A DNA stretch of 64,000 nucleotides from Octopus vulgaris (taxonomy: Eukaryota): positions 19,220,001 to 19,284,000 of the forward strand of contig OX597843.1 of assembly GCA_951406725.2 (NCBI GenBank), in the 5' to 3' direction. A model generated the notes under the pieces. It saw only the letters and a list, made by a program, of their open reading frames with translations. It had not been told where the DNA came from and did not search any database. Of this stretch, positions 14,773-56,670 are shown in pieces (position 1 is the stretch's first letter; the number at the start of each line of letters is the position of its first letter). The translations under genes and the position numbers were made by a program.

Positions 14773-15153
14773 GTTTAATCCTAAATCTGATTTTTTCCTG
14801 TAAATTTGGATTTATTCCCTAATATTTATTATTATTATATATATATATATATATAATAATAAGAGTAAATAATTTCTATAAAGGCTTTTAAAAAAACCCC
14901 AATTATTTACTGGTAGAATTCGGTATGTAAATATAGCCGATTACCGGCAGGAACTTCTGTAAAGTTCAGTATATATATTGTATATAAGAAAAAGGGACAG
15001 GCAAAACAGGTTGCTTGACCGCATACCGAAAAAATAGAAATAGCAGTCAAGAATGCTTATTTCTATCAAAGTTGGACTCGGGCATGACAGACCCTGTAAT
15101 TCACATATGCAAAACAGAAGGAATAGATAACGAATACGAAGTCTGGCGGTTAT

Positions 15154-15264
15154 CTGTGAACATCATGTTTCTGGATTATAAACATATTGAATATATATTC
15201 CATATATTTTTGATATATATTTCATATATATTGCAAATATATTTCACATCCTTCTTCAGCACAG
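15154..15264 (-). ncRNA. Type I hammerhead ribozyme motif, family A (sense to the host pre-mRNA)
   Basis: Minus strand reads CUGUG-CUGAAGA-AGGAU...AUCCA-GAAA-CAUGAUG-UU-CACAG; 5-bp stem I, predicted GUU cleavage triplet. Confidence 0.75.
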
Positions 15265-15705
15265 CTTTCCATTGAAAAAGATTTATCATAGATTTATCAA
15301 ATGCTACGTACCTCAAACCTTCTGACCATGCGACATCAAAATATTTGAAGAAAGTGAGCAAAGGCTAAACCTACATAGACGTTTGAATTCATAAATCTTC
15401 CCTCCAAAATTTTGCCATGCGCACTACAGTTAGGTTGTCAAAGGGAGTGAAAAATCCAAATAGTAATATAATGATAAGAGTAAATAATTTCTATAAAGGC
15501 TTTTAAAAAAACCCCAATTATTTACTGGTAGAATTCGGTATGTAAATATAGCCGATTACCGGCAGGAACTTCTGTAAAGTTCAGTATATATATAGTATAT
15601 AAGAAAAAGGGACAGGCAAAACAGGTTGCTTGACCGCATACCGAAAAAATAGAAATAGCAGTCAAGAATGCTTATTTCTAACAAAGTTGGACTTTCAATG
15701 GAAAG

Positions 15706-15816
15706 CTGTGCTGAAGAAGGATGTGAAATATATTTGCAATATATATGAAATATATATCAAAAATATATGGAATATATATTCAATATGTTTATAATCCAGA
15801 AATATGATGTTCACAG
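15706..15816 (+). ncRNA. Type I hammerhead ribozyme motif, family A, inverted copy
   Basis: CTGTG CTGAAGA AGGAT...ATCCA GAAA TATGATG TT CACAG; one C-to-T change in stem III. Confidence 0.68.
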
Positions 15817-15889
15817 ATAACCGCCAGACTTCGTATTCGTTATATATATATATATATATATATATATATATATATATATATATATATAG

Positions 15890-18800
15890 TACAAATAAGA
15901 AAATGGAGGAACAGATTCCTTTCAGTCATCGACTTACAGATAATACCAATTCATATTATTCATTACTGGCATATATTTATTTTTCATGTAGGTTTTTGTA
16001 TGAATCCACATGGTGGCCTCCAATATTAAGTTGTTTTTATGTATGTTTGTACTTATTTGTACTTTTTTATTTACTGGTACTTGATAATTCATTATAACAT
16101 ATATATATATATGTGTGCATTTGTGTATGTATATGCACGAGAGTATGTGTATATGCATGTGTAGGCGTGCATGTATATCCGTATATATGTGTGTGCATGT
16201 ATGTATGTATGCGTATGTCTGTATGCATGTATGAATATGTCCATATGTATGTGTGCATTCCTGTGTATATGTGCTTGCATGTATTTGTATGCATGCGTAA
16301 ATGTATGAGTGTGCAAGGATGTGTGAGCGCATATATGCGTGCATATACGCGTATGCACATATATGTGTGCGCATGTGTAAGTGTGTGTGCATGTGTGTAT
16401 GTATGGGCGGTTGTATGTGCGCGCATATATGCGAGCATGTGTGTATGTTTACATATGTGTGGGTGCGTATGGTTATATGTACATAATTTTGTGTATGTAT
16501 GTATATACTTGTATGTATGTATATACTTGTATGTATATGTATGTACATATGTTTATGTGTGTGTGCGCGCATATGTGTATAGGTCTGTGCGTATATATGC
16601 GGATGTATGACCTTGTGTGTATGTGTGGGTATATGTGTGGGTTGATGAATGGATGTATATTGGTATGCATGCAGATGTGTATATACATGTGTCTGAGGAG
16701 TGTGTATGTGGGTATATGAATGCTTGCATGCGTTGAGTGTATATATGTGTGTGTGTGCCTAGGTATATATATTTATATATTTATATGTATGTATATGTAT
16801 ATAGGTGCAGGTGTGTATATGTGTGTGTATATATATATGTGTGCTGTTGAATGTATGTATGTGTGTGTGGATGGGTATAGATATATATATATATATATAT
16901 GGGTGTTGGTGTGCATGTGTGTGTGTATAATGTTTTGTGTGTTTGTGTGCGTGCTGGTAAATATATGGGGTATATGAATGCTTATATACGTTGCGTGGGG
17001 GTATTTATGTGTGTGTGTGTCTGTAAGTATATATATATATATATATATATATATATATATAGGTGTGAGTGTGCATGTGTGTGTGCTGTTGAATGTATGT
17101 ATTTGTGTGTGTTTGTATGTAGGTATATATATCTATATATATACATATATATATATATATATATATATACAGGTGTAGTCGTGCACAGGTGTATGTATAT
17201 GTTTTCTGTGTATGTGCTGTTGAAGTTGTGTGTGTGTGTGTGTACATATGGATATGTATTTATGTCTATTTAAGAAGTGTGTTTGTATGTATGTATATTT
17301 ATGTGTGTGTATATGAGTATGTATGTAAATATGTATGTGTGTATGTATGAATGTTCATGTCTGTGTATATATGAGTATTTGTATGTATATTCTATATGTA
17401 TATTTTGCATATGTGTGGCTATTTACAGGTCTGTATGCACGTGTGCATGTGAATGTTTATGTACGTATATGAGTGTATATATGCATATGCATATATATAT
17501 TTACTTATGTACCTCAACCTATATTCGATTAAGGTATTTGTTGTATTTATATAGGTTTATAGGAAACGGGTGGACTGAATATTTGTTTAGTTTTAACTAC
17601 TTATGTGGTCCATCTTGATATTAATGATTTTAATCAAACATTTATTTAATTACGAAGATATAATTACCTTTGATCAATAATAAATTACCTATTATATATA
17701 GGGATACATAGATATGATAATGGATAACCTTAGATTAATATTGAATAACCATCTTATACCAGTAAATGGATGTAGAAATGAATGGATAGGTATTAATGCA
17801 GAATTAAAATACAAATAGTTGCATAATTGAGTAACAACTAAATTGTATATCGATCTCTAAAATATCCACAATAATAAACTTAAACTAGAAGATAATATAT
17901 GGTCAGATACAGAATATTTTATTCTTGTTACGATATTTTGTACGACGTAACTTTTGCAACGTGTTTTATTGGAGAGGTGTAAAGGTTAAGTTGATTGTAT
18001 GGATTCGCATTATAGTAACGGTATATTTACATGGTGAATTTGATTTTTCTATCTTTCGTAAATTTCTTCCTATTTCTTTACCATAAATCTTGTCAAATGT
18101 GTAATGCATACTTTCTATTTCTTTCGAAAGCTTTGCCTCATTATTTTCCAACCTTTGCTACGTATAATACCCTTTTATTATATTTTTTAGTTATCAGTAT
18201 GTATATGTATGTATATGTATATGTGTATGTCGGTGTTTATAAGTATACGTATATGTGTATATGGATATGTACGTACGTATATGTTTGTGTGTATTTATGT
18301 ACATATGATTATCTATGTGTACGTGTGTATGTGTGCATATATGTATGTATGTATGTATGTATGTGTATTTTAACCAACCAACCGTAACTAAGACAATGAA
18401 ATTCAAATGTGACAACCAATTGGATTTAGCTTGAGATTGTAAATAATCTCTCTCCTACCCCCGGAAGATTTTAAACCACTGTAATACTATATATTAATAA
18501 CAACGTAAGCATAGCCCGTTACGGCCTATCTCTTACCTCTTGATCTGTGAACTCTACGTATGTACACGCATATATCTTTTGTATGATGTAAAAGGATAAA
18601 ATCTATTTATATATGTATATCTATTAGTGGATGTTTTTGTGCATGTATGTATATGCATATACATCTATTTGTTACCCGTGTGTATATATATGTATGCAAA
18701 ATAAGACTGAAGTTTCGATTTTGACTGTATGATATATGAATATAATGACACTATTGGTTACATTATTTGTTGAATTAATGTGCTTGCAACTTCCATAGGC

Positions 18801-54950: not shown

Positions 54951-54975
54951 TATCACGAACTAACTGTTACTTTCT

Positions 54976-55178
54976 CAGATGCAGCACGGATTTTTGTCAG
55001 TGAACAGGTCGCAGATTTTAGCGACGAAAATATTTTGACAAATTAAACTTAAATGTTGAAGTGAATCGAACGGCTTTTGTGTGTTTCTTAAATGGCTTAT
55101 AAACACCTTCCACGCTGCAATTGTTTTCGTTCCAGCACACGATCTCAGATCAAATCACTTGCTATGCGAGTACATCTC
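54976..55178. mobile_element. Short non-autonomous DNA transposon, copy 2
   Basis: Homologous to 33062-33253. Confidence 0.6.
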
Positions 55179-55212
55179 TGTATATATATATATATATATA
55201 TATATATATATA

Positions 55213-55668
55213 TATAAATTAAATTAGAGATAAAACCACTATTAGGCAACTCAAACAGTGATAGACATAAACCAATACATAAACAACAAAAAATAAATAT
55301 TATTAATATAATATACAATATATATATAAAATATAAAATTTTAAAAATTTGAATTATTAAACTTTGAAATTTTAAAGTTTATATTTATAAATTATTATAT
55401 TTTTATATTTTTTAATTTTTTAACTTTTAATTTTTTAAAATATATATATAAATAAAAAAACAAATAAATAAAAATTAAAAGTTTAAAAATTTAAAAATAT
55501 AATAATTTATAAATATAAACATAAAAATTTCAAATTTTAATAATTAAAATTTTAAATTTTATATTTTATTATATTGATTACATTTATTTTTTGTTTTTTT
55601 ATATTTTGGTTTATGTCTATCACTGTTAGATTTGCCTAATGGTGGTTTTATCTCTAATTTAATTTATA
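55213..55668. repeat. About 455-bp AT-rich near-perfect palindrome
   Basis: tataaattaaattagagataaaaccactattaggcaa... mirrored by ...ttgcctaatggtggttttatctctaatttaatttata; the following 55685-55740 sequence also occurs at about 14775-14828. Confidence 0.85.
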
Positions 55669-55770
55669 TTTATACTGTGAAATTTGATTTAGTCCTAAAT
55701 CTAATTTTTCCCTGTAAGTTTGGATATACTCCCTAATATTATATATATATATATATATATATATATATAT

Positions 55771-56670
55771 AATAATAAGAGTAAATAATTTCTATAAAGG
55801 CTTTTAAAAAAACCCCGATTATTTACTGATAATCCAGAAACATGATGTTCACAGATAACCGCCAGACTTCGTATTCGTTATCTATTCCTTCTGTTTTGCA
55901 TATGTGAATTACAGGGTCTGTCATGCCCGGAGTCCAACTTTGATAGAAATAAGCATTCTTGACTGCTATTTCTATTTTTTCGGTATGCGGTCAAGCAACC
56001 TGTTTTGCCTGTCCCTTTTTCTTATATACAATATATATACTGAACTTTACAGAAGTTCCTGCCGGTAATCGGCTATATTTACATACCGAATTCTACCAGT
56101 AAATAATCGGGGTTTTTTTTAAAGCCTTTATAGAAATTATTTACTCTTATTACTATATTACTATTTGGATTTTTCACTCCCTTTGACAACCTAATTGTTC
56201 CCCATCTTATGGAACTATTTTTGTAATGCGCATGGCAAAATTTTGGAGGGAAGATTTATGAATTCAAACGTCTATATAGGTTTAGCTTTTGCTCACTTTC
56301 TTCAAATATTTTGATGTCGCATGGTCAGAAGGTTTGAGGTACGTAGCATTTGATAAATCTATGATAAATCTTTTTCAATGGAAAGCTGTGCTGAAGAAGG
56401 ATGTGAAATATATATGCAAAGTATATGAAATATATATCAAAAATATATATGGAATATATATTCAATATGTTTATAATCCAGAAACATGATGTTCACAGAT
56501 AACCGCCAGACTTCGTATTCGTTATCTATTCCTTCTGTTTTGCATATGTGAATTACAGGGTCTGTCATGCCCGGAGTCCAACTTTGATAGAAATAAGCAT
56601 TCTTGACTGCTATTTCTATTTTTTCGGTATGCGGTCAAGCAACCTGTTTTGCCTGTCCCTTTTTCTTATA
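55771..56670 (+). mobile_element. Second locus of the hammerhead-bearing non-coding repeat (644-bp period, short inverted left end), inserted in (TA)n
   Basis: gaaacatgatgttcacag occurs at 55837 and 56481; 55771-55828 is an inverted copy of about 56097-56150. Confidence 0.82.
56386..56498 (+). ncRNA. Type I hammerhead ribozyme motif, family A
   Basis: CTGTG-CTGAAGA-AGGAT...ATCCA-GAAA-CATGATG-TT-CACAG; the 3' half is repeated at 55829-55854. Confidence 0.75.

What the first reader, a model, noticed from the sequence alone, without database searches (positions are those of the whole stretch)
14854..56670. Diverse type I hammerhead ribozymes with greatly extended stem-loop II
Seen: nine hammerhead motifs in about seven unrelated sequence contexts (15154-15264 minus, 15706-15816, 19264-19391, 19881-19921 decayed, 24585-24671, 27169-27270 minus decayed, 34674-34710 minus atypical, 41496-41581 minus, 56386-56498). 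In five families the segment between CUGANGA and GAAA is about 59-101 nt and mostly AT-rich, with paired stem bases; stem III is tiny or palindromic (CAGCUG, CGAUCG). Established: Penelope-like elements carry minimal type I hammerheads whose palindromic stem III is thought to allow dimeric folding, usually with a short stem II. Inference: this is a long-stem-II architecture shared across PLE families here, which length-limited motif searches would miss.
Basis: partly seen in the sequence, partly recalled or inferred. Interest (0 to 1): 0.85.

Follow-up and report, generated by a model that had tools for sequence, protein, structure and literature searches.

The report
Long-armed hammerhead ribozymes in Penelope retrotransposons
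This animal genome holds about 20,000 sequence matches to hammerhead ribozymes whose second arm is a 45-105-base hairpin instead of the usual 10-25 bases; where a parent could be found it was a Hydra-type Penelope-like retrotransposon, and the RNAs are predicted, not yet shown, to cut themselves in pairs.

Summary
Seven of the nine sites are type I hammerheads of five repeat families (A-E) with 59-101 nt between CUGANGA and GAAA; five pass a stem-checking scan against 0.08 expected. The other two sites are short-armed. Genome-wide, one core pattern matches 16,839 times with a 45-75-nt spacer and 3,973 times with 76-106 nt, against 6,666 with 8-30 nt (reversed-pattern controls 181, 152, 108). 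The insert is not a loose AT-rich loop: it folds as one imperfect rod with compensatory changes. Families B, C and D belong to terminal repeats of Hydra-type Penelope-like elements; 21 of 22 hammerheads found upstream of such ORFs are long, whereas 66 of 67 beside related ORFs from marine metagenomes are 10-29 nt. Family A is a young, non-coding 616-bp retrozyme-like unit. Stem III is self-complementary, so dimeric cleavage is likely. Published short descriptors and Rfam miss the long forms, though longer loop 2 has a precedent in two spike-moss elements. Cleavage and any role of the long arm are untested. Verdict: a new, abundant, lineage-specific variant of a known kind.

The parts
14851..15847 (-). 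Family A insertion: non-coding 616-bp-unit element; main body on the minus strand (15693->14851) with an inverted 5'-truncated piece on the plus strand (15693->15847), between (TA)n runs
   Evidence: BLAST of the tandem unit, 98-99% identity; sequence; tandem arrays with 616-bp period elsewhere
15154..15264 (-). Family A type I hammerhead; core at 15259, 81-nt stem-loop II containing an 11-nt-period tandem repeat, A.A at 10/11 then G-C, 9-nt near-palindromic stem III, predicted cut after GUU (15159)
15706..15816 (+). Family A hammerhead in the inverted piece; C15.2->U; predicted cut after 15811
19118..19585 (+). Family B terminal-repeat (pLTR) fragment; 80-86% identical to the repeats flanking a Hydra-type ORF in L211
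19264..19391 (+). Family B hammerhead; 101-nt stem-loop II, G.U then G-C closing pairs, palindromic stem III ACAGCUGU, predicted cut after GUA (19387)
19881..19921 (+). Hammerhead-like short motif (UUGUUAA core, weak stem II) in the spacer of a 95%-identical inverted repeat (19663-19799 / 19958-20094); unverified
23452..23676 (+). Remnant of a Hydra-type GIY-YIG domain 913-1137 nt upstream of the family C hammerhead
   Evidence: hmmsearch with profile A4, E 1.2e-14
24585..24671 (+). Family C hammerhead; 59-nt stem-loop II, G-C closing pair, stem III ACGGCCCGU, predicted cut after GUC (24667); window copy has an A.C mismatch in stem I
27169..27270 (-). Family E hammerhead, decayed copy of an old family with 77-78-nt stem-loop II; predicted cut after 27172
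34674..34710 (-). Short minimal hammerhead variant (family core CUGUNGA, 13-nt spacer, no loop III) in the 3' region of another PLE family; not long-armed
35382..36416 (-). [quoted passage not shown]
37057..41348 (-). Broken Hydra-type PLE ORF (pieces 41348-40476, 40510-40079, 40088-39459, 37476-37057), interrupted by another retroelement fragment at about 37992-39431
   Evidence: tblastn with intact relatives, 45-70% identity; ORF list
41496..41581 (-). Family D hammerhead in the 5' pLTR of that ORF, about 240-265 nt before the coding start; 59-nt rod-shaped stem-loop II, palindromic stem III ACGAUCGU, predicted cut after GUA (41500); window copy has C11.1->A
55767..56684 (+). Second family A insertion with a short inverted 5' piece
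56386..56498 (+). Family A hammerhead, 83-nt stem-loop II, predicted cut after GUU (56493)

Best explanation
These are type I hammerhead motifs in the terminal repeats of Hydra-type Penelope-like retrotransposons and of likely non-autonomous derivatives, in which helix II has grown into a 45-105-nt base-paired rod, and they are predicted to cut the element's RNA as dimers. Shown: the motifs, their copy number, the paired rod with compensatory changes, their place 200-600 nt before the ORF start and after the ORF end, and the self-complementary stem III. Inferred from known PLE biology: a tandem or multi-copy transcript brings two motifs together, their palindromic stems III pair to form a double hammerhead, and each cleaves after H17, slowly and probably with help from the element's protein, to release unit-length RNA. 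Inferred here: the long arm arose in this host lineage by internal duplications and repeat expansion; it is tolerated because PLE hammerheads do not use a loop II tertiary contact, and it is kept paired because a rod that folds locally holds the 10.1-11.1 end shut and keeps CUGANGA and GAAA in register.
For: Enrichment over controls in the window and genome. Covariation across subfamilies: 13 of 31 pairs with two-sided changes in alignment A1 and 14 of 27 in A3, in stems I, III, basal II and the apical hairpin; 85-88% of cells paired against 30-51% when partners are slid. In BLAST-collected copies (not chosen by core), mismatch in the 11 core positions is below that in stem-loop II in all four families tested (D 0.003/0.030, B 0.009/0.042, C 0.034/0.062, E 0.060/0.112). 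Protein-anchored test: of 46 distinct Hydra-type ORF 5' ends, 22 have a sense hammerhead within 800 nt, 21 of them with 51-99-nt spacer. Complete elements carry the motif in both direct repeats (L192, L194, L211). RW, DKT and CxCx5C motifs in the ORFs match the Hydra definition (PMC8557442 section 11). Stem III duplexes -5.8 to -11.1 kcal/mol while monomer hairpins are unfavourable or sterically impossible. Length varies freely by indels and duplications (40 vs 61, 47 vs 56, 57 vs 78, 60 vs 78 nt relatives) and family A's arm is an 11-nt tandem repeat. No pseudoknot or flank pairing shared by most members. Dimer and protein dependence of PLE hammerheads: PMC4209133, PMC11167929.
Against: No cleavage was measured and no run on record as RNA was available. 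In ensemble folds with flanks stem I is rarely formed (probability 0-0.35) and basal stem II is formed in only 1 of 5 D-like examples. Among 55 pattern-selected loci only 22 have both stems I and II of at least 3 contiguous pairs and 21 have a stem-loop II z below -2; most genomic copies are decaying. RNAalifold on A1 prefers a hairpin that sequesters GAAA and the cut site over the hammerhead. Core identity in A1-A3 is circular because members were chosen by the core pattern. A has A.A and B has G.U at the core-proximal pair, and A cuts at GUU. No parent ORF was found for A or E. Eight of nine frog retrozyme dimers were inactive in vitro (10.64898/2026.07.22.740005).
Confidence: 0.68

Rival explanations
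1. Same ribozymes, but the long arm is a selected functional module: a binding site for the element's RT/endonuclease protein or a docking surface that speeds dimer cleavage.
For: Length and shape are kept within lineages over RT divergences down to about 50% (57-61 nt in the D-like group, 53-57 nt in another); the apical hairpin, which catalysis does not need, covaries; several unpaired or internal positions are invariant in A1; long forms outnumber short ones about three to one for this pattern; a lizard PLE hammerhead cleaves only with the element's protein (PMC11167929).
Against: No sequence motif is shared between groups; lengths form a continuum from 41 to 105 nt; related Hydra-type elements elsewhere work with 10-29 nt; no conserved pseudoknot.
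Confidence: 0.2
2. The motifs are catalytically dead or nearly so; core and stems are kept for a non-catalytic role of the terminal repeat (promoter, protein binding, reverse-transcription start).
For: Low predicted population of the active fold; hammerhead cleavage was not needed for insertion in vitro and no RNA-seq ends were seen at the cut site in the lizard element (PMC11167929); a very abundant neighbouring family has fixed A6U.
Against: All 11 catalytic positions are kept while N7 varies, and stems I and III covary as the hammerhead fold requires; NUH rule obeyed in every family.
Confidence: 0.1
3. The insert is an intron or carries the poly(A) signal, so that the mature RNA has a short helix II or uses the arm for 3'-end formation.
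For: Family B ends its insert with a pyrimidine tract and CAG; AAUAAA/AUUAAA lies in the arm in 95% of D-like motifs and 4 of 4 of another group; PLE terminal repeats can hold introns (PMC4209133).
Against: The AG is absent from most B-like and D-like relatives; across 39 clusters the signal is no commoner than in shuffles (0.15 vs 0.17); the insert is paired end to end.
Confidence: 0.02

Closest known systems
[quoted passage not shown]
   Same: Type I topology, short helix I, optional extra base at 9/10.1 and before G12, small palindromic helix III, place in the terminal repeats, solo and inverted copies, high family diversity
   Different: Published helix II is 3-8 bp with a 3-10-nt loop (descriptor); here 15-38 predicted pairs over 45-109 nt
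Hammerheads of Hydra-clade PLEs (Craig et al. 2021, PMC8557442, File S2)
   Same: Host elements have RW(K), DKT, CxCx5C, C-terminal GIY-YIG without internal cysteine pair, (TA)n targets; stem III of 6-8 nt
   Different: All tabulated Hydra motifs, including one from Octopus bimaculoides, have loops of 3-10 nt; ORFs here are longer (840-1090 aa) and elements about 4.6 kb
Spike-moss PLE-X1 hammerheads marked 'deviates from canonical structure' (PMC8557442, File S2)
   Same: PLE hammerheads with an enlarged loop 2 (29 and 35 nt; about 50 nt between the boxes)
   Different: Two endonuclease-less plant elements, not analysed for structure; here tens of families, about 20,000 matches, up to 109 nt, with covariation
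Non-LTR retrozymes of animals (PMC7229834; 10.64898/2026.07.22.740005)
   Same: Family A: non-coding tandem unit with one type I hammerhead per unit, low GC, dispersed monomers to multimers
   Different: 81-nt arm; PLE-type inverted 5' pieces and (TA)n targets; circular RNA not tested; parent not found
Discontinuous CLEC2 hammerhead of mammals (as summarised in PMC6155905)
   Same: A long insertion in one arm hides the motif from short descriptors
   Different: Type III, insertion in helix I, single-copy host gene

Membership tests
Type I hammerhead ribozyme | Core CUGANGA, GAAA, NUH in type I order | tested here: met
   (family majority intact; some window copies mutated)
Type I hammerhead ribozyme | Three helices around the core supported by covariation | tested here: met
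   for two groups; B partly (6 of 25 pairs); A too young to show variation; C and E not counted
Type I hammerhead ribozyme | Canonical G10.1-C11.1 closing pair | tested here: inconclusive
   G-C in C, D, E majorities; G.U in B and A.A in A with G-C as next pair, which fits the optional extra N10/N11 of the PLE descriptor
Type I hammerhead ribozyme | Score above Rfam RF00163 gathering threshold | tested here: not met
   no hammerhead hit at E<=10 on B, C, D or at gathering on 10 loci; a short Hydra-type control scores 13.3 of 34 bits
Type I hammerhead ribozyme | Loop I-loop II tertiary contact of fast natural hammerheads | tested here: not met
   no shared flank pairing (best 3 of 7, 2 of 10, 1 of 11); non-canonical contacts cannot be tested
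Type I hammerhead ribozyme | Site-specific self-cleavage | not testable with these tools
   needs an in vitro assay or raw RNA reads
PLE pLTR hammerhead (dimer type) | Lies in both terminal repeats of a PLE ORF, sense strand | tested here: met
   D-like L192, L194; B in L211; C downstream of GIY-YIG remnants; not shown for A and E
PLE pLTR hammerhead (dimer type) | Small palindromic stem III | tested here: met
   (45 of 55 fully self-complementary, outer pairs fixed by the pattern)
PLE pLTR hammerhead (dimer type) | Short helix II / loop 2 as in published descriptors | tested here: not met
Hydra clade of PLEs (host element of B, C, D) | N-terminal RWK and DKT motifs | tested here: met
   DKT in 5 of 5 full ORFs; RW in 5 of 5, exact RWK in 1
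Hydra clade of PLEs (host element of B, C, D) | CxCx5C linker; C-terminal GIY-YIG lacking CCHH | tested here: met
   CxCx5C in 4 of 5; a single cysteine before YIG/YVG in 5 of 5
Hydra clade of PLEs (host element of B, C, D) | Insertion into (TA)n | tested here: met
   repeat ends at L192:1329 followed by (TA)n in contigs of four runs; TA runs upstream
Hydra clade of PLEs (host element of B, C, D) | Placement with named Hydra references in an RT tree | not tested
Hydra clade of PLEs (host element of B, C, D) | Generally shorter than 3 kb | tested here: not met
   repeat-to-repeat distance 4.6 kb in L192, L194, L211
Non-LTR retrozyme (family A) | Non-coding tandem unit with a type I hammerhead in each unit | tested here: met
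   nine consecutive 616-bp units in L122
Non-LTR retrozyme (family A) | Expressed as linear and circular monomer RNA | not testable with these tools
   only assembled contigs of runs not on record as RNA were listed

The most novel reading that the evidence does not exclude
The long rod is a lineage-specific functional module that recruits the element's protein or times dimer cleavage, long-armed hammerheads are the commonest ribozyme form in octopus-like genomes, and the same extension hides hammerheads in PLE clades reported to lack them (the Naiad 'half-core' cases with boxes 35-50 nt apart, including one octopus family).
Probability: 0.2. Interest if true: 0.75.

Novelty: new variant of a known kind. 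Interest (0 to 1): 0.55.

Why it matters
The families give a natural length series (40-109 nt) on one catalytic core, attached to young intact elements, which makes the open question of what PLE hammerheads do, and whether they need the element's protein, directly testable. The chemistry and the host element class are already known.

Tried and rejected
Rfam on the whole window gave microsatellite-driven miRNA hits (150 of 288 rows shown, none a hammerhead). Pfam found nothing on the PLE ORFs. First guess that the ORF beside D is a Naiad: rejected, it has a C-terminal endonuclease and Hydra motifs. Intron inside the arm and poly(A) signal as general explanation: not supported. Conserved pseudoknot: none. 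Parent ORF for A: Hydra-type fragments near L121 and L345 lie beyond a (TA)n boundary or begin mid-ORF and are neighbours; a GIY-YIG 1.6-2 kb upstream in L329 is a single case. Parent for E and for several other long-arm families: none in 10-kb stretches. The PLE at 52877-54172 shows no CUGANGA of its own within 1.5 kb downstream in 30 copies. Covariance model R1 finds only D in the window, so groups are not alignable beyond the core. The 31-44-nt bin, N7 = A/G and 7-nt stems III (families A, C) were not counted genome-wide; 19881 was not searched genome-wide. The tree is a quick search; the careful one did not finish. Lunse et al. (PMC5785218) and Arkhipova et al. 2017 (PMC5850863) are not held; either, or unseen supplements, may show long-loop PLE hammerheads. 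Earlier-findings look-ups gave nothing for this genome.
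Full report
Setting. The window lies in a 2.8-Gb genome of 227 contigs, rich in microsatellites and retroelement remains. Genome size and the named homologues of its PLE proteins (Argonauta hians among the best named hits) suggest an octopod; this is an inference.

Observation. All nine sites are in the sequence. A scan for CUGANGA, GAAA and NUH with stems I-III and a spacer of 8-150 nt returned 5 cores; 200 local dinucleotide shuffles gave a mean of 0.08 and at most 2. 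The seven long-armed sites belong to five families: A (three copies, spacer 81-83), B (101), C (59), D (59), E (77). Each is a dispersed repeat (652, 1,504, 151, 2,900 and 283 first-look candidates, which are not copy numbers), and the family majority has an intact core where the window copy is mutated. The site at 34674 is a short minimal motif of a different PLE family with a fixed A6U and a variable N7 (31 of 46 tallied cores CUGUNGA). The site at 19881 has no homologue among the loci held and remains unverified.

Scale. The pattern CTGAYGA-spacer-GAAACRNNYGTH matched 6,666 times with 8-30 nt, 16,839 with 45-75 nt and 3,973 with 76-106 nt; the reversed pattern matched 108, 181 and 152 times. 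These are unfiltered sequence matches; one locus can fall in two bins; the 31-44 bin, N7 = A or G and 7-nt stems III were not counted. Among the first 55 long matches fetched, 45 had a fully self-complementary stem III (outer pairs fixed by the pattern), 30 a stem I and 40 a stem II of at least 3 contiguous pairs, 22 both, and 21 a stem-loop II z-score below -2 (mean -1.8). The 175 distinct long motifs held at that point fall in 39 clusters with median spacer 41-105 nt.

Anatomy of the arm. The insert folds as one imperfect rod: a basal helix, one or two internal loops and an apical hairpin with a 3-8-nt loop, 15-38 pairs in all. In 13 D-like sequences 13 of 31 named pairs show two-sided changes and 84.8% of cells pair, against 30-51% for slid partners; in 11 sequences of another group 14 of 27 pairs and 88.0% against 35-45%. 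The structures were drawn from these sequences and the shuffle control ignores relatedness, so the figures overstate significance; still, changes occur in stem I, stem III, basal helix II and the apical hairpin. For nine B-like sequences RNAalifold gives a rod with 6 of 25 pairs changed on both sides. On the D-like alignment RNAalifold prefers an alternative hairpin over GAAA and the cut site. In BLAST-collected copies the 11 core positions differ less from the majority than the arm does in D, B, C and E. Relatives differ by block indels, and A's arm is an 11-nt tandem repeat. No flank pairing is shared by most members. AAUAAA/AUUAAA is nearly fixed in the D-like arm but not enriched over 39 clusters.

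Host elements. D lies about 240-265 nt before a broken ORF at 41348-37057. [quoted passage not shown] Starting from the protein rather than the motif, 50 loci (46 distinct) were examined: 22 distinct ones have a sense hammerhead within 800 nt upstream, 21 with 51-99-nt spacer and one short motif from a neighbouring insertion; 24 have none, many being inverted or truncated there. L192, L194 and L211 carry the motif in both direct repeats 4.6 kb apart; L211's is family B. C follows Hydra-type GIY-YIG remnants in the window and in L098/L129 and L110. A is a non-coding 616-bp unit, about 99% identical between copies, found as monomers, inverted pairs and arrays of nine, inserted in (TA)n: retrozyme-like and probably moved by a PLE. 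No parent was found for A or E.

Contrast. Of 78 loci of related ORFs from marine metagenomes, 54 have a sense hammerhead; 66 of 67 motifs have spacers of 10-29 nt and one weak hit 155 nt. Published Hydra motifs are also short (PMC8557442 supplement File S2). In a quick tree the 12 ORFs from this genome form one side of a branch (support 93, not starred), next to Argonauta and unnamed proteins (L211 and one metagenome ORF left out as too short). One origin of the long arm is therefore possible, not shown. Contigs of four coded organisms hold a D-like repeat.

How it most likely works. Stems III can pair between two copies (-5.8 to -11.1 kcal/mol) but not usefully within one. PLE hammerheads were inactive as monomers and weakly active as dimers (PMC4209133, parts 1-3 of 4 read), and a lizard one cleaved only with its protein and was not needed for insertion in vitro (PMC11167929, passages). 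So a tandem transcript would likely form a double hammerhead and be cut after H17 into unit-length RNA. The arm folds on its own (pair probabilities 0.85-1.0 in the A array) while stem I is rarely formed in the predicted ensembles, which fits slow, assisted cleavage and is also the main evidence against activity. I take the arm to be a tolerated expansion kept paired to close the core (0.68); a selected binding module (0.2) and dead motifs (0.1) are the rivals.

Comparison with print. The 2014 descriptor limits stem II to 3-7 bp and loop 2 to 3-10 nt (supplement passage). Craig et al. searched Naiads with spacers of 7-17 nt and noted eight 'half-core' cases at 35-50 nt, among them an octopus and a squid family (passages and File S1); they list two spike-moss motifs with 29- and 35-nt loops as deviant. 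Other papers seen: 10.64898/2026.07.22.740005 (parts 1-3 of 5); passages of PMC6765202, PMC7229834, PMC3088659 (A6C known and slow; A6U not in the passages seen), PMC6155905, PMC7936874, PMC13725137, PMC6962438. Ten full-text searches listed no paper describing long-armed PLE hammerheads in cephalopods; the two most relevant unseen papers (Lunse et al.; Arkhipova et al. 2017) are not held and could contain examples. Rfam gives no hammerhead hit on B, C or D but also only a weak one on a short control. Two earlier AI notes describe enlarged stem II in prokaryotic hammerheads; they were not checked and are not support.

Verdict. Real, abundant and apparently undescribed as a class, but a variant of a known ribozyme in a known element type, with no functional data. 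Interest 0.55.

Noticed in passing
window 34674-34710 (-); L297-L326: A very abundant PLE family (15,420 first-look candidates for its GIY-YIG) carries a minimal hammerhead with a fixed A6U change and freely varying N7 (CUGUNGA); a related family keeps CUGACGA and another shows CCGACGA. Whether A6U cores cleave is open.
   Followed up: partly
window 19881-19921 (+): Core reads U3...U6...A8, i.e. the known U3-A8 covariation plus A6U, so it may be a variant rather than decay; it sits in the spacer of a 137-bp inverted repeat.
   Followed up: partly
window 52877-54172 (+); L267-L296, L453: Another young PLE family (ORF up to 1,025 aa, DKS motif, CxxxCxxC linker) with no CUGANGA of its own within 1.5 kb downstream in 30 copies; its hammerhead may be further away, atypical or absent.
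   Followed up: partly
window 14455-14754 and 15841-16140: A 300-bp duplication (99% identical), each copy starting with (TA)n, flanks the family A insertion: larger than an ordinary target-site duplication.
   Followed up: no
alignment A1 (D-like group): GUAC/GUAY occurs three times (both strands of basal stem II and across the cut site), allowing an alternative hairpin that would sequester GAAA and the cut site; AAUAAA/AUUAAA lies in the arm about 25 nt before the cut site.
   Followed up: partly
L438 3374-4442 (-); G000 C1:25050050-25052891: Other tandem hammerhead arrays with 534-bp (50-nt arm) and 560-bp (25-nt arm) periods: more retrozyme-like families.
   Followed up: no
L192, L193, L198, L200 ORFs: Hydra-type ORFs here carry long asparagine-rich insertions between RT and endonuclease, making them 140-390 aa longer than the roughly 700-aa metagenome homologues.
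   Followed up: no
window 20705-21370 (-) and 2378-2773 (-): Ankyrin-repeat exons of a host gene; several hammerhead-bearing insertions may lie in its introns.
   Followed up: no
window 48571-50826 and 59319-61592: Inverted pair of RTE-like LINE copies, 94-98% identical.
   Followed up: no
L136 8694-8875 (-): U2 snRNA match above the Rfam threshold (97.5 bits).
   Followed up: no
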